Source of the DNA: Bacteriovoracaceae bacterium
GTDB lineage: Bacteria > Bdellovibrionota > Bacteriovoracia > Bacteriovoracales > Bacteriovoracaceae
DNA: 64,000 nt
NCBI GenBank assembly: GCA_018649885.1
Contig: JABIHA010000028.1
Location: forward strand, 1-64,000
Direction: 5' to 3'
Shown in pieces: positions 20,212 through 42,815 of this stretch. Position numbers and translations under genes: made by a program. Position 1 is the first letter of the stretch. Every line of letters starts with the position of its first letter. The notes beneath the pieces are model-generated. The model did no database searches. It saw nothing but the letters and a program-made list of their open reading frames with translations, and was not told where the DNA came from.

Positions 20212-23067
20212 ATGTACAAACTATTTAAGATTACAGTTGTTTTTTTGTCTTTAATTAGTTGGGGCATTACCTATGCAAGTGTAAGTAGCATTTGCGAAAA
20301 TATGAAAAATGGAACTTATCAGGATAGTGAAAAAAGATACACTCTTGAATTGAATCAAAGTAATCTTTGGGATTTTGCTAGCGAAAATGATGATGAGCAG
20401 TGGGCGAAGTTTGTCACGGTAAAATGCGATGACAGCGAAGTCTTTGTATTTCAAAATAGTGCAAAATTTCCAACTCACTATGATTTTTTGAACAAAGTAA
20501 TTTACAGTGATACCTTATCCAAAGAACAATTCAAGGCAATGACTCTGGGGCGTAAAGGCAGGGTTCATCTCTTAGGCGTTCTCAATTACAAACGAAACTT
20601 CGAAGGTTACGAACCAGGTACTCACTATCAATTTATTAGTAGTGATAATTTTAGTGCAAGTGAAATTTACCAGTTAAAAGTAAATCTTCTTTCCCGTGTA
20701 AAGCTCACCTTACTTCACATATACTATTTCCCTTCACCTCTCATTAGACAGGCCGTAAAAGATGACCGCGATGCTTACAATACTTTGGGAATTGATGTGG
20801 AATTTCCTGGGCAACCAAGAGAATACATAAGCTACTCTGCAGGCTGGTCAGCGGGCAAGGTGGTTAGAATACTATCGAGCGAAATCGAAACAAAATGGAT
20901 CAGCGGAGAAATAACAGCAAAAGATATCCTTGTTGTTGACAAGGTTCCAAGGGATATCCCTCCTGTTGCTGGAATCATTACTTCAGAGACTTCTTCAAGC
21001 TTTTCTCACGTGGCATTACTATCAAAGATGATGGGGACTGTTTTTCTTTATGAAAAAGATGCCTACTTTCTTGATAAATGGAAGCAAAGAGAGAATACCT
21101 TGGTTTTTATTGAAACGAAGGAAAAGGAAGATCATTTCTACAGTGATGTCAGATCCATCGTTGAAATTCGTGATAACTTAACTGAGAAAGACATTGAAAA
21201 GGTATTGAGGGTCAGGACAATTCCTGCTCGCAAGATACCAGAGTTTAATCACCAATATGCTAAACTAAAATCCATTGATAGCTATATTTTTAGTGATAAA
21301 AATAAAATTGGGGCCAAGGCGGCAAACCTCGGTTTTATTTGCCAAGCTCTAGAAGAGTGTCCAATAGGATTTGCCCTCCCATTTTCATATTATGAAAACC
21401 ATTTGGATACAAGCTTAGCGAGCGGATTCACTATTAGGGAGACAATAAAAGCTCTACTAGAGGGAAATGATCTTAGTGCTGTAGAGCTCTCCAAAACATT
21501 GCAACAGATAAGAGACCTCATTAAGACCACAGCGGTAAATCGTGGTGATTTTAAAAAGATATATGGGGAAATTCAGCGTGTCTTTGGTAAAGATGAGGTT
21601 CGAATAAAACTGAGAAGTAGTAGTAACGTTGAAGATCTCAAGAACTTCAATGGTGCAGGGTTGTACAGTTCAAAAGCGGCTTCTTCTATATCCAAAGAAG
21701 AAATTGAAAAAGATTTAAAGAAAGTCTGGGCCTCACTCTACTCAGAAAGGGCCTATATTGCCAGAAATCTAGCGGGCCTTAAAGGCCTTGGCACTTCCAT
21801 GGCCGTTGTGGTCCAGGCATCATATATAGGAGAGTTGGCAAGAGGCGTTTTATTTATTGATAAAAGTGGTTATGGAAAAAAACCGAAAGTAATTGTCTCA
21901 GGGTTTCCGGGAGATCAGCTCAAAGTTGTAGATGCGCCAGCGGGTAAAGTACCAGAAATTGTTGAACTATCATCTTACGGAAGAACAAAACTCGTCAGAA
22001 AAACTACCGAACTTCCTGATGGGCAGAGAGTCTTAACTGAGGCCCAATATCAAGAGCTTCAGTCCAAGTCTAGTAAACTCTTTGGACGCTGGATTACTTC
22101 TAGATCTCTTGATGAGAAGAAAGTTGTTCTAGATATGGAATGGAAGCTTCTAGCAAGTGGTGAAATCATTATAAAGCAACTACGTCCTGTGCCAGAAAAG
22201 AGTGGATCCCAAAATGATCAGCTGGTAACAACTGTTGTGGGTAACAAGGGGGCCATTTTAAGAATAAAACTTAGAGAGTCCTCCAATGGCCTAATTGCCC
22301 TAGCTCTCAACATGGACCTTGAGCTAGATTCTATGGCCTTTATCTTTGATGAATCACTTTCCACCGTAGGCCCAATTACTAAGGTTAGTGGAAAAAATCG
22401 AGGAGGTATACCCTTTGAAGTGAATGCTAACATGATGAAAGGAAATTTTTCAAAGACTGCTTGGGGTGAAAAATACTCAGGTTATGAATACGAAGTAAGA
22501 GAGGTGAGTTTTGTACTTGAAGTTCCTCTTCCAGACGTACCATCTTTTAAAATATTAATGAAAAGAGAGGAGAGAAGGCTTCCAGGTACATCGCGTGTAA
22601 CCAACCCTATAGTGAGTATAGAGGAGCTTGATTTTGAAGTTTTGGCATTGAAATCAGACTTGCCTGGATACAACCCTGAATATAAAAATAGAGAAATTTC
22701 TGTGGAAGCTGAAATTGTTCCGGTTCCCATGGTTGATAAAGTCATTGAAGAGCTTACGGAAACCTACCAAAGCACTAGTGGCTACAGTATTGAGCTTAAA
22801 ATGGAGCTTCTTCTCAGCGAAGGCTATGATGCTAGGGGACTCGACTACTACAACGTAACTTCAGGTAAAATTACTGGTCTGATAGAAAAAGATATTGAAT
22901 TCAACTCACCTCTTGCTGTGGAATACAGTGCTATTGATCACAACAGCGAGTTTGGCATTGCCTTTGATTTTCTCTTCGCTGACAACCTGACAGAAGCCGA
23001 GAAGGTGGACTTAATCAAGATTCATGGGCGTTACTTACACTTTGAACCTGCCTGGGAAGATTATTAA
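20212..23067 (+). CDS. Exported PEP/pyruvate-binding (PPDK_N ATP-grasp) dikinase-like protein with N-terminal phosphohistidine domain
   Basis: Signal peptide ending TYA; AGIITSE....SHVALLSK His domain; GAKAANLG, RSSSNVEDLKNFNGAGLYSS and DMEW...KQLRP ATP-grasp motifs. Confidence 0.85.
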   Translation: MYKLFKITVVFLSLISWGITYASVSSICENMKNGTYQDSEKRYTLELNQSNLWDFASENDDEQWAKFVTVKCDDSEVFVFQNSAKFPTHYDFLNKVIYSDTLSKEQFKAMTLGRKGRVHLLGVLNYKRNFEGYEPGTHYQFISSDNFSASEIYQLKVNLLSRVKLTLLHIYYFPSPLIRQAVKDDRDAYNTLGIDVEFPGQPREYISYSAGWSAGKVVRILSSEIETKWISGEITAKDILVVDKVPRDIPPVAGIITSETSSSFSHVALLSKMMGTVFLYEKDAYFLDKWKQRENTLVFIETKEKEDHFYSDVRSIVEIRDNLTEKDIEKVLRVRTIPARKIPEFNHQYAKLKSIDSYIFSDKNKIGAKAANLGFICQALEECPIGFALPFSYYENHLDTSLASGFTIRETIKALLEGNDLSAVELSKTLQQIRDLIKTTAVNRGDFKKIYGEIQRVFGKDEVRIKLRSSSNVEDLKNFNGAGLYSSKAASSISKEEIEKDLKKVWASLYSERAYIARNLAGLKGLGTSMAVVVQASYIGELARGVLFIDKSGYGKKPKVIVSGFPGDQLKVVDAPAGKVPEIVELSSYGRTKLVRKTTELPDGQRVLTEAQYQELQSKSSKLFGRWITSRSLDEKKVVLDMEWKLLASGEIIIKQLRPVPEKSGSQNDQLVTTVVGNKGAILRIKLRESSNGLIALALNMDLELDSMAFIFDESLSTVGPITKVSGKNRGGIPFEVNANMMKGNFSKTAWGEKYSGYEYEVREVSFVLEVPLPDVPSFKILMKREERRLPGTSRVTNPIVSIEELDFEVLALKSDLPGYNPEYKNREISVEAEIVPVPMVDKVIEELTETYQSTSGYSIELKMELLLSEGYDARGLDYYNVTSGKITGLIEKDIEFNSPLAVEYSAIDHNSEFGIAFDFLFADNLTEAEKVDLIKIHGRYLHFEPAWEDY

Positions 23068-34327: not shown

Positions 34328-34515
34328 AATATTTGCCTAGAAGCTTTTGGAGCACACTACTCTTTTTTTTAGCCTATTCACATAGCAGCAGGCGGAAGAC
34401 AGGCTTGGGCCTTGCCTGCCGTTCTTCGCGACAAGTCATCCATCTTCATTAAGTTGACATTAAGAGTCCATAAATGATTCCATACTTAGAGTATTTTCTA
34501 TCAGATGGAGCTTTT

Positions 34516-36276
34516 ATGAAAATCACTCTAGTCCTGTCCCTATTTATATTCTTTTCTTTATCAGCTCATAGTCTTGAAATTTTGAATTTACAACTTTCAG
34601 GATCTAGAACATGCGCTCTTGTAAAAGGCACAGATGGAAATCGCCTAGAATGTTTTGGCCTTTCCAAAGGTGATTTTACACCACCGATAAAAAACCTAAC
34701 AAATATATCTGTTGGTGGTGATCATATGTGTTCCATTATTTCTTCAAAGCTTCGCTGTTGGGGCAATGCCATGGATATTAGTCTAGATGTAGACAGTCCG
34801 AGGGCCCTAAGCTCTTCCAAATCCGTCAGTTGTTTATCAAGTGGTGGAGTCCTAGAGTGTGTTGGACCTAGTAAATTTGCAAAATTAACACCTCCTAAAG
34901 TTGACGAAGTGATTAAGATATCTCTTTCTCCGATCCATGGATGTTTATTAAATGACAAAATAGAAGGACCAAATGAAGTATTGTGCTGGGGAGACAATCG
35001 CTTTGGTAAAGTTGATGTTCCCCTTTATATCAAAAATCCTGTGGATGTAGTAGTAGGTGCAAGCTTTAGCTGCGTTATTGATCAGTATCAAAAAGAAAAA
35101 AGAAGAGTCGTTTGTTGGGGGAGAGGCAAGGATGGCGAATTAGCTATTCCTAGCGGAAAGTTAAACTTTCCTCTGAGATTATCAGCAGGGAAATCACATC
35201 TTTGTGTTCTCGATCAAATAAACCATTGGCAGGAAACTCAGTTATTTTGCTGGGGAAAAAATACTATGGGACAAATTGATGTGCCTAGTTTAAAAAATCC
35301 ACTTTTTATTTCATCTGGAGCAAACCACAGTTGTGCATACTATGATGAGAGTAAAGAGCTTGCCTGCTTTGGATCTAATTACAGTGGTGAGGGAGATATT
35401 CTGCCCTTACATGCAAAATCTACTCTAAGTAAATCCTTACTGGTGGTAAAAAAAGAGCTTGGATTAAATAAGTCTTCGGTGAGCGGGGTTCTTAGCACGG
35501 GTTTTTACCATTCATGTGTTATTGATAAAGTGGGAGTAAAATGCTGGGGATCAAATTCATTTGGGCAAACAGAAGTTCCTAAACTGCGTAGGCCCACTTA
35601 TGTAACGGCGGGTGGTCATCATACATGTGCTCTAGATAGCAGTGGTGTTAAATGTTGGGGGAAAAATAATTTTGGCCAAACCGATGTACCGAAACTGAAC
35701 GGACCGATTCAGGTTTTGGCGGGGGCAAAACACACTTGCGCTCTAGACCAGGACGGAGTTAAGTGTTGGGGTAGCAATACCGATTATCAATTAAAAATAC
35801 CTGTACTAGACAAACCCATATGGATATCGAGAGGCTACTATCATAATTGTGCTAGAGATAAAGAGGGGGTAAAATGCTGGGGAAAATTTGGACGCTATAA
35901 TGGATATGTAGTACCTCCCGTTTTGAAAAATACGACACAAATGGCCGGCAGTGATCAACATGTTTGTGCCATCGACTCAGGAGTCGTTAAATGTTGGGGA
36001 GTCGCAAAGTATGGTGCAACTATTGTCCCGAGACTTACCGCACCTACTCAAATTGCAACGGGTGAAAGACATATCTGTGCTATCGAAAATAAGACAAAAG
36101 CAAATTGTTGGGGAACAAATAAACACGGTCAATTAAATCCTCCCACTTTTAATAAAATAAAAGTGATGGACGCTTTTGCCCTTCATAGCTGTGCACTAGA
36201 TGCTGATGGTGTTAAGTGTTGGGGATGGAATAAATATGGTCAAAATGATGTGCCAAAGTCTTTAGTTCTTAGATAG
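34516..36276 (+). CDS. Secreted RCC1/BLIP-II repeat protein, two propeller regions
   Basis: Signal peptide; seven ~37-aa C-terminal repeats H.C.....GVKCWG.N..GQ..VP. Confidence 0.88.
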   Translation: MKITLVLSLFIFFSLSAHSLEILNLQLSGSRTCALVKGTDGNRLECFGLSKGDFTPPIKNLTNISVGGDHMCSIISSKLRCWGNAMDISLDVDSPRALSSSKSVSCLSSGGVLECVGPSKFAKLTPPKVDEVIKISLSPIHGCLLNDKIEGPNEVLCWGDNRFGKVDVPLYIKNPVDVVVGASFSCVIDQYQKEKRRVVCWGRGKDGELAIPSGKLNFPLRLSAGKSHLCVLDQINHWQETQLFCWGKNTMGQIDVPSLKNPLFISSGANHSCAYYDESKELACFGSNYSGEGDILPLHAKSTLSKSLLVVKKELGLNKSSVSGVLSTGFYHSCVIDKVGVKCWGSNSFGQTEVPKLRRPTYVTAGGHHTCALDSSGVKCWGKNNFGQTDVPKLNGPIQVLAGAKHTCALDQDGVKCWGSNTDYQLKIPVLDKPIWISRGYYHNCARDKEGVKCWGKFGRYNGYVVPPVLKNTTQMAGSDQHVCAIDSGVVKCWGVAKYGATIVPRLTAPTQIATGERHICAIENKTKANCWGTNKHGQLNPPTFNKIKVMDAFALHSCALDADGVKCWGWNKYGQNDVPKSLVLR

Positions 36277-39270: not shown

Positions 39271-39633
39271 TCAATTGAGTAGTTCTTTAAACATCCCAGT
39301 TTCAATGGCCTTAACTGTTTGGCCGCGTCCACCGAGCAGTTTTCCTTTCACAAAAACTTGGGGAAATGTGGGCCATCCGCTCCAGATTTTAATCGCCAAT
39401 CTCTTTCTCCATAGTTTTAGGTAGTTTCCATACTCTAGATAGTGAAAAGGAGTATCATTGTCTGATAGATATTTTCTCAAATAGATAACATGAGGATTCC
39501 AGGCCATTCCCACTACAACTACATCGTGAGAGTTAATAGCACTCTTTACTTCATCAATAATCCCTGGATGAAAGCCATCCATAGACTTTCTTGCATATTC
39601 TGTTGCTTCTGGATGTTCCGTGGTTGTAGTCAA
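39271..39633 (-). CDS. Glutaredoxin-like protein with no cysteine
   Basis: WSGWPTFPQVFVKGKLLGG monothiol-Grx C-terminal signature; TTG after AGGAG. Confidence 0.8.
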   Translation of the reverse strand: MTTTTEHPEATEYARKSMDGFHPGIIDEVKSAINSHDVVVVGMAWNPHVIYLRKYLSDNDTPFHYLEYGNYLKLWRKRLAIKIWSGWPTFPQVFVKGKLLGGRGQTVKAIETGMFKELLN

Positions 39634-39686: not shown

Positions 39687-41072
39687 CTAGTTAAATAGGT
39701 TTGAGAGGGCAAGTGTGAATGATTTTCTGCCCTGGTTTTCTGCGATGATTCTAAAAGCTTCAGAAAAGTAAAACTTTGTTAAAAGCAGCTTTGATTCATC
39801 AGCATTTTTAGAATCGTCTTCATAAGCAAATTGCTTTGCTAGATCAATGGCCTCTATAATATCGGCACCAGAAAAACCTTCTGATTCAGAGCTAAGCCAC
39901 TCTACGCTTATTCCTTTTTCCCAGACAGCGCCTTTTTTTCCAAATCTTTCAAAAAACTTAGAACGAATTGTAAATTTAGGTAGTCCGTAGGTAATGTGGA
40001 GTCCAAGTCTTCCAGATCTGATCAGTGCAGGGTCAAGGGAGTCCGCATTATTTGTAGTGGCAATTGTCAGTACTCCATCACTTTCAACAAGGCCGTCGAG
40101 CCCATTGAGAAATTCGTTTAAAACCACTTGGTCATAAACTGCTTTTTTCTCTCCACTACGGCTACGCACGCCAACGAGATCGAGATCTTCCATAAAAATT
40201 GTTGTAGGGGAGAGCTCTTTTGAGACCTTAAATAGTTTTTTAATCATATAAGAGTTAGATAAATGTCTGGCACTGAGATAAACAAATGACGATTTCTTCT
40301 TCAATTTACCTTTTAGAACATTTGAAATAAGAATTTGTCCAAGAAAGGATTTGCCAGTTCCAGGAGGTCCTTGAAGTAGTACACCTTTTTTTGGTTTTAT
40401 ATTCATAGCTTTGTAGATAGGGAAGTTTAACAAATAATCATGAGTATTTTCAATCGAGTTTCTCTTTAAATCTGCATCTAGAATTAAGTCATCCCATTTG
40501 TAATTAAATGAAGCCGTATTTTGCATGAATCCAACTCTAGAGGACTTAAATTCTATAATACTATTTTTGTAAATATTTTTTGGCACAAGGTATTGTTTTA
40601 ATTGCGCCAAAATCTTCTTTGATAGTTTGGTGTCGACATCTCTTGAGTAAATATTAAAAACACCGTCGTACATTTGTACAATGAAGCGATGTGGAGTGCT
40701 CTTATCTTTACCTAAGTGAATAAAGTAATATCCGGATCCAGTCATCATCAACTGCTTATTTCCAAAATTATCTAGCTGGATAAAACTTGTATCAATGGGA
40801 GTTCTTCTTCCGTAGATATATGCCGCCCTATCGTAGACGGTGAAGTCACCTTTTGCATCATAAAAAGTCTGATGAGTCGCCACATACGTAAGGTTTATGT
40901 AATCGTACAATATGCTCGATGTTATAACATGTGTATGTTCAAAGTCATTCACTTGCAGCCAGTTGTTAGCAGCAAGTGGCCAGGTATCGAAATCTGGGTC
41001 AAGAGCATCTCCTGCAAAGACAGTGGTGTGACATAGTAGTGATAATATCAATATATATGGTAAATTTTTCAT
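39687..41072 (-). CDS. AAA+ ATPase (Bcs1-like) with N-terminal signal peptide
   Basis: GPPGTGKS Walker A, IFMEDLD Walker B, FLNGLDG, TTNNADSLDPALIRSGRL second region of homology; MKNLPYILILSLLCHTTVFA signal. Confidence 0.88.
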   Translation of the reverse strand: MKNLPYILILSLLCHTTVFAGDALDPDFDTWPLAANNWLQVNDFEHTHVITSSILYDYINLTYVATHQTFYDAKGDFTVYDRAAYIYGRRTPIDTSFIQLDNFGNKQLMMTGSGYYFIHLGKDKSTPHRFIVQMYDGVFNIYSRDVDTKLSKKILAQLKQYLVPKNIYKNSIIEFKSSRVGFMQNTASFNYKWDDLILDADLKRNSIENTHDYLLNFPIYKAMNIKPKKGVLLQGPPGTGKSFLGQILISNVLKGKLKKKSSFVYLSARHLSNSYMIKKLFKVSKELSPTTIFMEDLDLVGVRSRSGEKKAVYDQVVLNEFLNGLDGLVESDGVLTIATTNNADSLDPALIRSGRLGLHITYGLPKFTIRSKFFERFGKKGAVWEKGISVEWLSSESEGFSGADIIEAIDLAKQFAYEDDSKNADESKLLLTKFYFSEAFRIIAENQGRKSFTLALSNLFN

Positions 41073-41084
41073 AATTTATCCTTT

Positions 41085-42404
41085 CTAATTCTTAAATTTT
41101 TTCTTTAAGCTAACTGACTCTTCAAGGCCACCTTGAGAGATATTTACCTTTTTTAGGCCTCTGTCATATTTTCCGTTAGCTATAGACTTCTCTACACTGA
41201 GTGCCACAACGTCTTTGATAAATGCTCCTGTTCTTCCTTCAGTAATAGATGAAAGCTTTTCAAGGTTCAGGCTTCCGGTAATATGTTTCTTGGTAAATAG
41301 TGAGAAGAGCTGTTTTCTTGCATCAAACGAAGGTAATCCCACAAGGTGGTGAAAGCCAAGTCTTTTAGATCTTTTTAATGCAGGATCAATTCTTTCGGCG
41401 AGGTTGGTAGTAGCAATGGTGATGACACCTTTAAGCTCTTCTACACCACTAAGCTGTTGCATCAACTCATTTTTTACATCAGCTCTATCCGTCCTATCCG
41501 TGCCGGCAATTAAATCCACATCTTCAATGAAAATAACCGATGGGGTGAACTTTCTAGCGGCATTATATAGTGATCGTACCAAAGATGAGTAGAGGAGGTG
41601 TCTTGCCTGGACGTGAATGTAGGTGACTTTGTTTTTATACCGACTTTGCATAACATTGCTTGCGAGTATCTTGGCCACAAAACTTTTGCCTGTTCCGGGA
41701 GGCCCATGAAGGAGTACGCCTCTATTTGATGGAAGGCCGTACTTTTTCCAGTCAGAGCTGCCGTAGCCATTGAGAAAACCATCAATGGTTTTGACCATAC
41801 GTTTTTTCTCACTTTGGTTAAAAATAAAGCTGTCCCAATTAACATCTAGGTCATCTATGCCCTTCCAAAAACTCATCATACCTGAATTAAACTCAAGTAC
41901 ACTTCCACGATATGGAGTTGTTTGGTAGAGATCTTTTTCTATTTCTTCTAAAAAAGAATTGGCAAGTGCAAGTGAGGCCTTATTACTTCTCTGATAGTAA
42001 GTACTCACAGAGTTTCGGCTTTGAACAACCAAAAGTCTTTGATCATGGTCAAGTTTATTGTAGATCCAGTAATATAGTCGCACGTCTAACAATTTTTCAA
42101 CATAGGGAGCTTGCCCTGTTTGAACGATGCTTCGGCTTTTAAACCAAGGGTATGATCCATTATAATTCATTGATTTCGCTACTACCCACTTAGAGCTTTT
42201 TCTACTTATGAACTCGTCAAAGTAGATACTGTAGGAATCGGCCAAATTACTCCCCTTGTAAATAGTTGAGGCAGAGTAGGAATTGGGGAGATTGTACCAA
42301 GTTTGCAAAGCTTTTGAAAAATTTTTGAAGTCCACAACAGGGATAGTTGAATAGGCCTTGGGGACTAGGTTTAGAAATAGTGTTAATAATATTATTGTTT
42401 TCAA
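41085..42404 (-). CDS. AAA+ ATPase (Bcs1-like) with N-terminal signal peptide
   Basis: GPPGTGKS, IFIEDVD, TTNLAERIDPALKRSKRL; MKTIILLTLFLNLVPKAYS signal; TTG after AAGGAGG. Confidence 0.88.
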   Translation of the reverse strand: MKTIILLTLFLNLVPKAYSTIPVVDFKNFSKALQTWYNLPNSYSASTIYKGSNLADSYSIYFDEFISRKSSKWVVAKSMNYNGSYPWFKSRSIVQTGQAPYVEKLLDVRLYYWIYNKLDHDQRLLVVQSRNSVSTYYQRSNKASLALANSFLEEIEKDLYQTTPYRGSVLEFNSGMMSFWKGIDDLDVNWDSFIFNQSEKKRMVKTIDGFLNGYGSSDWKKYGLPSNRGVLLHGPPGTGKSFVAKILASNVMQSRYKNKVTYIHVQARHLLYSSLVRSLYNAARKFTPSVIFIEDVDLIAGTDRTDRADVKNELMQQLSGVEELKGVITIATTNLAERIDPALKRSKRLGFHHLVGLPSFDARKQLFSLFTKKHITGSLNLEKLSSITEGRTGAFIKDVVALSVEKSIANGKYDRGLKKVNISQGGLEESVSLKKKFKN

Positions 42405-42815
42405 TCTTCCTCCTTGAAGATAGGCATGGTCAATAATGGTTTTATTGAATTAAATAATGATCAAAATATTATCAAGTTTTGTCAAATAATTAGGGTCTTT
42501 GTAATAATATAGTTTAATTAGATTCACGACTCGTGAAACAGGCATTTTGTTAGTTGAGAAAACAATGTTATCAAAAATGAATAGAATCCGCTGACAGCCG
42601 AACACAATCTTTCATGCCAAAAGCATGGTGAATGATTTTATCTAAAAGTTTATGGAACAGCTTGCTTATAAAGTTTTTGAACGTGTATTTATGTGATGCA
42701 AGAGATAGCAGTACCTGAATTGCATGCAAAAAAGGCATCATGAAGGTGAGATAGATTCATTTTTGTCATTATTAAAGGCGTAGTATTCTGCTTCTATCTT
42801 AAATGGGAGAAACCT

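What the first reader, a model, noticed from the sequence alone, without database searches (positions are those of the whole stretch)
39687..42404. Tandem Bcs1-like AAA+ ATPases that both appear to be exported
Seen: two co-oriented paralogous AAA genes 12 nt apart, each with intact Walker A (GPPGTGKS), an EDxD Walker B and a second region of homology with Arg fingers. Each opens with a short MK-hydrophobic-small-residue leader (..TVFA|G, ..KAYS|T) and has no other obvious TM segment. Known: the WD.(L/F)I pre-Walker segment, EDxD Walker B, LNGLDG and lack of a KYVG-type pore loop resemble Bcs1, which moves folded Rieske protein across a membrane. AAA ATPases are normally cytoplasmic and the periplasm is considered ATP-poor. 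Inference: a hetero-oligomeric AAA machine exported to a place where ATP is available, such as prey cytoplasm or the bdelloplast, acting as a remodeller or extractor. I know of no description of such a system.
Basis: partly seen in the sequence, partly recalled or inferred. Interest (0 to 1): 0.8.

Follow-up and report, generated by a model that had tools for sequence, protein, structure and literature searches.

The report
Exported ATP-driven chaperone gene pair
Two neighbouring genes of a predatory-type marine bacterium encode ATP-burning ring proteins that both carry export signals, which suggests a protein-handling machine working outside the cytoplasm, where bacteria are usually thought to have little ATP.

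Summary
Confirmed. Genes B (41085-42404) and A (39687-41072), 12 nt apart, encode AAA ATPases of the YjoB/Bcs1 type; the best Foldseek match is YjoB. They define two sister clades. A leader shaped like a cleavable Sec signal is present in 26 of 26 A and 29 of 33 B proteins, against 3 of 61 nearest relatives, by my own heuristic (no SignalP). Catalytic motifs are almost invariant. B precedes A in 8 of 8 informative loci. The pair is rare: 1 of 238 genomes of the order. This genome holds three pairs, plus signal-bearing Clp-like ATPases, dikinase-like proteins and CotH kinases. In the only other carrier genome found, the gene after A is a basic orphan membrane protein; 13 of its 14 copies lie within two genes of a signal-bearing ATP-using enzyme of one of three unrelated kinds. 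It is a candidate ATP exporter. Best reading: an exported mixed A/B chamber chaperone in the periplasm (0.5); delivery into prey is the main rival (0.25). Export, co-assembly and ATP supply are untested. This scan reported the family before, on another contig of this genome (e1-7470751).

The parts
42457..42485 (-). Promoter-like site upstream of B (TTGACA-17-GATCAT); unproven
   Evidence: 10 of 12 matches; 15 such sites in the region against 12.4 expected in shuffles, so chance level
42409..42414 (-). Shine-Dalgarno AGGAGG before the TTG start of B
41085..42404 (-). Gene B: 439-aa signal-bearing YjoB/Bcs1-type AAA ATPase, clade B
42348..42404 (-). Predicted Sec signal peptide of B (residues 1-19)
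   Evidence: own heuristic
41856..42347 (-). N-terminal domain of B (about residues 20-183), YjoB/Bcs1-NTD-like
41094..41855 (-). AAA domain of B (Walker A at 41682-41705, EDxD Walker B, NELMQQLSG, two Arg fingers)
39687..41072 (-). Gene A: 461-aa signal-bearing YjoB/Bcs1-type AAA ATPase, clade A
41013..41072 (-). Predicted Sec signal peptide of A (residues 1-20)
   Evidence: own heuristic
40515..41012 (-). N-terminal domain of A (about residues 21-186), YjoB/Bcs1-NTD-like
39735..40514 (-). AAA domain of A (Walker A at 40347-40370, EDxD Walker B, NEFLNGLDG, two Arg fingers)

Best explanation
B and A are co-expressed, exported through Sec, cleaved, and assemble in the periplasm as a mixed ring, most simply an alternating A3B3 hexamer. 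As in YjoB and Bcs1, the N-terminal domains form a dome over the ATPase ring and enclose a chamber. With no aromatic pore loop, the ring holds or remodels folded or partly folded exported proteins rather than threading them. ATP reaches it from the cell's own cytoplasm through an inner-membrane carrier; the best candidate is a basic ~210-aa orphan membrane protein, a second is an NTT/TLC-family transporter. Shown here: the leaders, the fold class, motif conservation, the gene pair and the co-occurrences. Inferred: export, mixed assembly, ring size, periplasmic location, substrates and ATP route. My rough odds for the steps: export 0.85, mixed ring 0.75, own periplasm rather than prey 0.6.
For: Leaders: 26 of 26 A and 29 of 33 B pass; the four B misses look like short start calls or fragments; net charge is positive before the hydrophobic stretch (25 of 26 A, 23 of 29 B) and zero or negative after the cleavage site (25 of 26, 22 of 29); Ala at -1 in 42 of 55; no lipobox (the heuristic requires Ala, Gly or Ser there). 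ATP use is under selection: ED-type Walker B and sensor 1 in 59 of 59, both Arg fingers in 58 of 59; Walker A Lys invariant. A and B are each one clade (SH-aLRT 100) and sisters (98). B precedes A, -4 to 17 nt apart, in 8 of 8 informative loci. A and B distances co-vary over 11 pairs (Spearman 0.57, Mantel p 0.0002). The second-region motif differs by clade: DG in 26 of 26 A, SG or NG in 33 of 33 B. Foldseek ranks YjoB first for B; of the 50 rows listed for A, only YjoB and Bcs1 align over 300 or more residues (358, 310). YjoB is a chambered hexameric chaperone with the same ED Walker B and a Km for ATP of 13.6 uM (PMC9565160). This genome also encodes signal-bearing Clp-like ATPases, one with a CUB domain, 3 signal-bearing PPDK_N proteins and 4 signal-bearing CotH proteins. 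In G376 the gene starting 1 nt after A's stop is the orphan; 13 of its 14 copies lie within two genes of a signal-bearing ATP-using enzyme. Both carrier genomes hold the orphan, which is in 8 of 238 and 5 of 127 genomes.
Against: Signal calls come from my own heuristic, and 1554 of 4075 ORFs of this genome pass a similar one. Co-variation of neighbouring genes is expected from shared descent alone, and 5 of the 11 pairs were matched only by equal contig length. The orphan abuts the pair in only 1 of 7 loci with a readable downstream gene, and not in this window. The orphan has no Pfam, PDB or Atlas match, so its transport role rests on gene context and basic charge (+13 to +19). NTT-like genes occur in 48 of 238 genomes of the order and do not track the pair. 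Only two carrier genomes were available. The YjoB match has rmsd 8 to 10 A over the whole chain, and in the VIA listings other classical AAA proteins score equal or higher Z on the ATPase domain. The N-domain profile alone finds no solved relative by sequence. Periplasmic phosphatases hydrolyse ATP in E. coli (PMC7432876).
Confidence: 0.5

Rival explanations
1. The A/B ring is exported by Sec and then secreted across the outer membrane (type II secretion or vesicles) into prey or a lysing prey compartment, where prey ATP fuels it to take apart prey complexes.
For: The same leader and motif evidence. The genome has 4 secretin genes. Prey cytoplasm is ATP-rich (general knowledge). Patchy occurrence and three divergent pairs in one genome (39-63% identity) suit prey-specific tools.
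Against: Not found in 237 of 238 genomes of this order, so it is not core predation gear. A membrane protein of the producing cell travels with three unrelated exported ATP-using enzymes, which is easier to explain by a local ATP supply. No secretion genes adjoin any pair examined.
Confidence: 0.25
2. A and B are exported but work as separate homo-rings, or as ATP-starved holdases that bind nucleotide only when cells or prey lyse.
For: YjoB is a homo-hexamer whose N-domain ring is stable alone (PMC9565160). Each clade keeps a full set of catalytic motifs, so neither obviously needs the other. Lig E is thought to use scarce extracellular ATP (10.64898/2026.03.22.713542).
Against: Strict B-then-A coupling in 8 of 8 informative loci, no lone copy in either carrier genome, and a clade-specific change in the inter-subunit motif.
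Confidence: 0.15
3. The leaders are uncleaved membrane anchors with the N-terminus outside, leaving the ATPase ring in the cytoplasm as a Bcs1-like translocase or membrane-protein chaperone.
For: Bcs1 has a single N-terminal transmembrane helix where these proteins have their leader (PMC9565160). It removes the ATP problem. Median best 19-residue hydropathy of the leaders is about 1.6, borderline for a membrane helix.
Against: The charge pattern is the reverse of that topology under the positive-inside rule (rule recalled; counts): basic before, acidic after. Leader sequence is not conserved in the alignments, unlike what a ring of membrane helices would need. No conserved internal Met offers a leaderless form (at most 16% of rows).
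Confidence: 0.1

Closest known systems
Bacillus subtilis YjoB (PDB 7W42/7W46; PMC9565160)
   Same: N-domain plus single classical AAA domain, ED-type Walker B; first Foldseek hit for B (E 1.5e-19, 406 columns, 19% identity); aligns over 356-358 residues for both models.
   Different: YjoB is described as a single-gene homo-hexamer of Bacillales with cytoplasmic enzymes as clients; the word 'signal' does not occur in the paper's main text. Here two paralogues with export leaders are always paired.
Mitochondrial Bcs1 (PDB 6UKP, 9GSN)
   Same: Related N-domain fold, ED-type Walker B; weak Atlas feature leads to BCS1_N and AAA_assoc clusters (scores 0.76-0.77).
   Different: Bcs1 is a membrane-anchored homo-heptamer that moves folded Rieske protein. 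Here the only hydrophobic stretch looks cleavable, and no Pfam BCS1_N match was reported.
Leaderless phage-type relatives (G007 contig 83, P0254, P0312, P0329)
   Same: Nearest relatives by the N-domain profile; ED-type Walker B in 52 of 61.
   Different: No leader in 58 of 61. Several lie beside or are fused to terminase, portal or prohead-protease domains.
[quoted passage not shown]
   Same: A bacterial ATP-dependent enzyme with an N-terminal export signal; the same ATP-supply question.
   Different: A single-chain ligase thought to use extracellular ATP, not a ring motor; no dedicated ATP carrier is proposed in the passages read.
Torsins (ER lumen) and Plasmodium HSP101 (recalled, no call)
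   Same: AAA+ proteins with signal peptides that work in a lumen outside the cytosol.
   Different: Eukaryotic and of the Clp/Hsp100 lineage; only a weak Torsin Pfam score below cut-off for B.

Membership tests
Classical AAA clade | Walker A, Walker B, sensor 1 and second region of homology with Arg fingers | tested here: met
   PF00004 above cut-off for both; motif counts
Classical AAA clade | Aromatic pore loop 1 used for threading | tested here: not met
   No conserved aromatic residue after ARH in either clade's consensus
YjoB/Bcs1-type AAA group | ED instead of DE in Walker B | tested here: met
   59 of 59 A and B proteins; feature stated in PMC9565160
YjoB/Bcs1-type AAA group | YjoB/Bcs1-type N-terminal domain fold | tested here: met
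   Whole-model alignments extend over the N-domain for YjoB and Bcs1; high rmsd, and the domain was not modelled alone
YjoB (Bacillales) | Single leaderless gene, cytoplasmic clients | tested here: not met
   Paired genes with leaders
YjoB (Bacillales) | Hexamer with internal chamber and holdase activity | not testable with these tools
Bcs1 | Uncleaved N-terminal transmembrane helix with the ATPase on the ATP-rich side | tested here: not met
   Leader charge and cleavage pattern by heuristic; no other hydrophobic segment
Bcs1 | Homo-heptamer translocating Rieske protein | not testable with these tools
   No Rieske gene among the neighbours listed; activity not testable
FtsH, CDC48, PAN | Curated NCBIfam cut-off; protease domain, second AAA domain or OB/coiled-coil N-domain | tested here: not met
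   Scores of about 100 bits against cut-offs of 500 to 800, AAA domain only
Sec-exported (SPase I) proteins | n-, h- and c-regions with small residues at -1 and -3 | tested here: met
   Own heuristic; SignalP was not available
Sec-exported (SPase I) proteins | Observed cleavage and extracytoplasmic location | not testable with these tools
   Needs proteomics or reporter fusions

The most novel reading that the evidence does not exclude
Some Bdellovibrionota-type bacteria run an ATP-powered periplasm. An undescribed ~210-aa inner-membrane protein exports ATP, and a set of Sec-exported ATP users (this mixed A/B AAA ring, Clp-like ATPases, dikinase-like enzymes, perhaps CotH kinases) works on that pool. 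The A/B ring would be a bacterial counterpart of luminal AAA+ chaperones, and the orphan a first named route for ATP across the Gram-negative inner membrane.
Probability: 0.3. Interest if true: 0.93.

Novelty: new variant of a known kind. Interest (0 to 1): 0.78.

Why it matters
Periplasmic protein quality control is taught as ATP-independent (recalled), and a review states that the route of ATP from cytosol to periplasm is unknown (PMC7432876, passages). A family whose export signals and ATP-hydrolysis motifs are both conserved over about 60 divergent sequences makes that assumption testable with two small genes. The co-occurring orphan membrane protein gives a concrete candidate carrier to assay. 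If the ring is instead delivered into prey, it would be an exported AAA machine used as a predation tool, for which my searches found no report.

Tried and rejected
RNA evidence: no RNA holder listed; three same-study RNA runs laid 0 contigs: no verdict. NTT/TLC as a marker of the pair: present in both carriers but also in 48 of 238 genomes; kept only as a secondary candidate. A recalled likeness of the orphan to Mpv17/PMP22 got no support from Pfam, PDB or Atlas. A conserved neighbourhood beyond the pair: not found. Lipoprotein or Tat export: lipobox in 0 of 55, twin-Arg-like motif in 1 of 55. FtsH, CDC48 or PAN identity: rejected. Spurious leader by wrong start call: rejected for A; unlikely for B given the Shine-Dalgarno site and homologues. 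Promoter scan at chance level. Literature searches with no relevant paper; listings only.

Full report
Observation. Two minus-strand ORFs fill 39687-42404: B (41085-42404, 439 aa, TTG start behind AGGAGG) and A (39687-41072, 461 aa), 12 nt apart. They are 34% identical over 302 columns. Each has PF00004 above cut-off but scores about 100 bits on FtsH, CDC48 and PAN models whose cut-offs are 500 to 800. Each begins with a basic, hydrophobic, small-residue leader and has no later hydrophobic segment (best 19-residue mean 0.81 and 0.77).

Family. Homologue searches gave 13 near full-length relatives of A and 30 relatives of B, some partial, before a drop to CDC48. An N-domain profile against 1.84 billion representatives found 266 proteins at E up to 0.001, of which the best 150 were listed. 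A tree of 126 rows (26 A, 33 B, 61 other N-domain relatives, 6 CDC48 D2 domains; fragments without a full AAA domain and one unrelated hit left out) makes A one clade and B one clade (SH-aLRT 100 each) and sisters (98); it was a quick search without bootstrap. The pair is therefore an old duplication in which both copies were kept. YjoB and Bcs1 sequences were not in the tree.

Leaders. No SignalP was available, so I used a heuristic: an uncharged hydrophobic 8-mer plus a -1/-3 small-residue site. It passes 26 of 26 A, 29 of 33 B, 3 of 61 other relatives and 4 of 106 CDC48-type hits. The four B misses read as short start calls or fragments. Charge is positive before the hydrophobic stretch and zero or negative after the site in most rows; none has a lipobox. 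That is the pattern of a cleaved Sec signal and the reverse of an N-out anchor (rule recalled). No conserved internal Met offers a leaderless form. The background in this genome is high, 1554 of 4075 ORFs, but among 135 Walker-A ORFs only 16 pass: the six A/B proteins, three Clp-like ATPases, and seven that look like false positives.

Catalytic state. ED-type Walker B and sensor 1 are kept in 59 of 59 and both Arg fingers in 58 of 59; the Walker A lysine is invariant. These proteins are under selection to bind and hydrolyse ATP. Neither clade has a conserved aromatic pore-loop residue, so threading unfoldase activity is unlikely. The motif before the second region of homology is DG in all A and SG or NG in all B, a fixed asymmetry of the kind expected in a mixed ring (inference).

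Fold. AlphaFold models are confident (pLDDT 84 and 90). Foldseek ranks B. subtilis YjoB first for B. In the VIA listings other AAA proteins score equal or higher Z on the ATPase domain alone, but YjoB (356-358 residues) and Bcs1 (310) align over the N-domain too, with rmsd of 10 to 13 A. From PMC9565160 (parts 1 and 2 of 7 of the text, and passages; supplements not read): YjoB is a hexamer with a chamber, has the ED Walker B, a Km of 13.6 uM and an N-domain like that of Bcs1, and prevents aggregation of chosen clients. The nearest leaderless relatives are often phage-type, beside or fused to terminase, portal or prohead-protease domains; the Atlas structure search of the N-domain also leads with mainly viral AAA clusters.

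Pairing and range. This genome holds three pairs, on contigs 7, 5 and 83. A motif scan of metagenomes gave 10 loci: 4 are this organism's own, 2 end at or just after B, and 4 show B then A; in L183 gene A is broken. With G376 that is 8 of 8 informative loci, spaced -4 to 17 nt. Six more A/B couples share a contig length (inferred pairs). Distances co-vary over 11 pairs, 5 of them inferred, which shared descent also explains. The pair was found in 1 of 238 genomes of the order (the one other match, in G007, is a leaderless phage-type gene), 2 of 301 sampled from the phylum and 1 of 127 in the class of G376. One B protein is labelled Bacteriovoracia by NCBI.

Where could ATP come from? This genome encodes other signal-bearing ATP users: Clp-like double ATPases on contigs 140 (two) and 1, the last with a CUB domain, and a second CUB-Clp copy on contig 17; 3 of 4 PPDK_N proteins, one inside this window at 20212-23067; and 4 of 5 CotH matches, the fifth not read. 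G376 has similar Clp cassettes. The CUB-Clp family is in 7 of 238 and 4 of 127 genomes and includes both carriers; G000 was the query, so only G376 counts as a test. In G376 the gene starting 1 nt after A's stop encodes a 212-aa basic, hydrophobic protein. It belongs to a conserved orphan family with no Pfam, PDB or Atlas match, 20 homologues and net charge +13 to +19 in the four measured. It is in 8 of 238 and 5 of 127 genomes, 14 copies in all. Thirteen lie within two genes of a signal-bearing ATP-using enzyme: Clp-like in 9 (G113 by coordinates only), the A/B pair in 1, PPDK_N in 3; the G153 copy, on a 4.7-kb contig, does not. Eight copies seeded the profile and two are their close kin, so the fair test is the other four, of which three sit by PPDK_N proteins. 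One membrane protein beside three unrelated exported ATP users is most simply an ATP conduit, but it could be an anchor or maturation factor. It abuts the pair in only 1 of 7 loci with a readable downstream gene, and in this genome its one copy lies on contig 140, in the Clp cluster that also holds an NTT/TLC gene.

Mechanism. Best reading (0.5): Sec export, cleavage, assembly of a mixed A/B ring with a YjoB-like chamber in the periplasm, acting as an ATP-cycled holdase or remodeller of exported proteins, fed by an inner-membrane ATP carrier. Rivals: delivery into prey (0.25), separate or ATP-starved rings (0.15), cytoplasm-facing anchored translocase (0.1). The complex could not be folded, and no RNA run holding the region was listed.

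Prior knowledge. Exported ATP-dependent enzymes have precedent: Lig E has a periplasmic signal and is thought to use extracellular ATP (10.64898/2026.03.22.713542, passages). A review reports 24 uM ATP per 10^10 cells in the E. coli periplasm and an unknown route across the inner membrane (PMC7432876, passages). Five full-text searches found no paper on signal-bearing bacterial AAA ATPases or NTT-type ATP export; the library lacks most subscription papers. This scan noted the same family on another contig of this genome, and exported Clp-like families here and elsewhere; these are unchecked notes, not independent support.

Verdict. Real, conserved and apparently undescribed in print: a new variant of the YjoB/Bcs1 kind, with a testable route to something categorically new. 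Interest 0.78.

Noticed in passing
window 20212-23067 (+): 951-aa signal-bearing protein with a PPDK_N (dikinase ATP-binding) domain; two more in the genome (contigs 76, 132), beside a normal leaderless PPDK on contig 99.
   Followed up: partly
L186:10733-11371 (G376 contig 3); L189:13234-13875 (G000 contig 140): Orphan ~210-aa basic membrane protein found beside three unrelated kinds of signal-bearing ATP-using enzymes; candidate ATP exporter.
   Followed up: yes
L189:6468-18085 (G000 contig 140, 16467-28084): Cluster of two signal-bearing Clp-like ATPases, a vWA protein, a trypsin-like protease, the orphan, an RCC1-repeat protein, an NTT/TLC transporter and a signal-bearing protein of no known family; similar Clp-vWA-protease cassettes occur twice in G376.
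   Followed up: partly
L190:5338-7536 (G000 contig 1); G000 contig 17, 11332-13506: Clp-like ATPases with a CUB domain between the two AAA domains; the contig 17 copy precedes a subtilase-like gene.
   Followed up: partly
L013:1516-4804 (G007 contig 83); P0254, P0296, P0312, P0329: Leaderless relatives of the pair are tied to phage head genes: next to or fused with terminase, fused to portal-like or prohead-protease domains, one with an intein-like insert. A possible capsid-assembly chaperone family.
   Followed up: partly
P0281, P0283, P0315: Signal-bearing YjoB-type AAA proteins outside clades A and B; P0283 and P0315 are long, with altered catalytic motifs, so export may have arisen more than once.
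   Followed up: no
G000 contigs 57, 29, 60, 20, 38: Five CotH-family kinase matches, four read and all with signal-like leaders.
   Followed up: partly
L269:1-8713 (G018 contig 28): Tandem run of at least five signal-bearing leucine-rich-repeat genes around the orphan, downstream of a signal-bearing PPDK_N gene.
   Followed up: no
window 39271-39633 (-): Glutaredoxin-like gene 53 nt downstream of A on the same strand; not seen beside the other pairs.
   Followed up: partly
window 34474-36276 (+): 600-aa signal-bearing protein with RCC1-like repeats by eye, similar in style to the one in the contig 140 cluster.
   Followed up: no
L183:405-1859: Clade A gene split by a stop after 270 codons; could be an assembly error or decay.
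   Followed up: no
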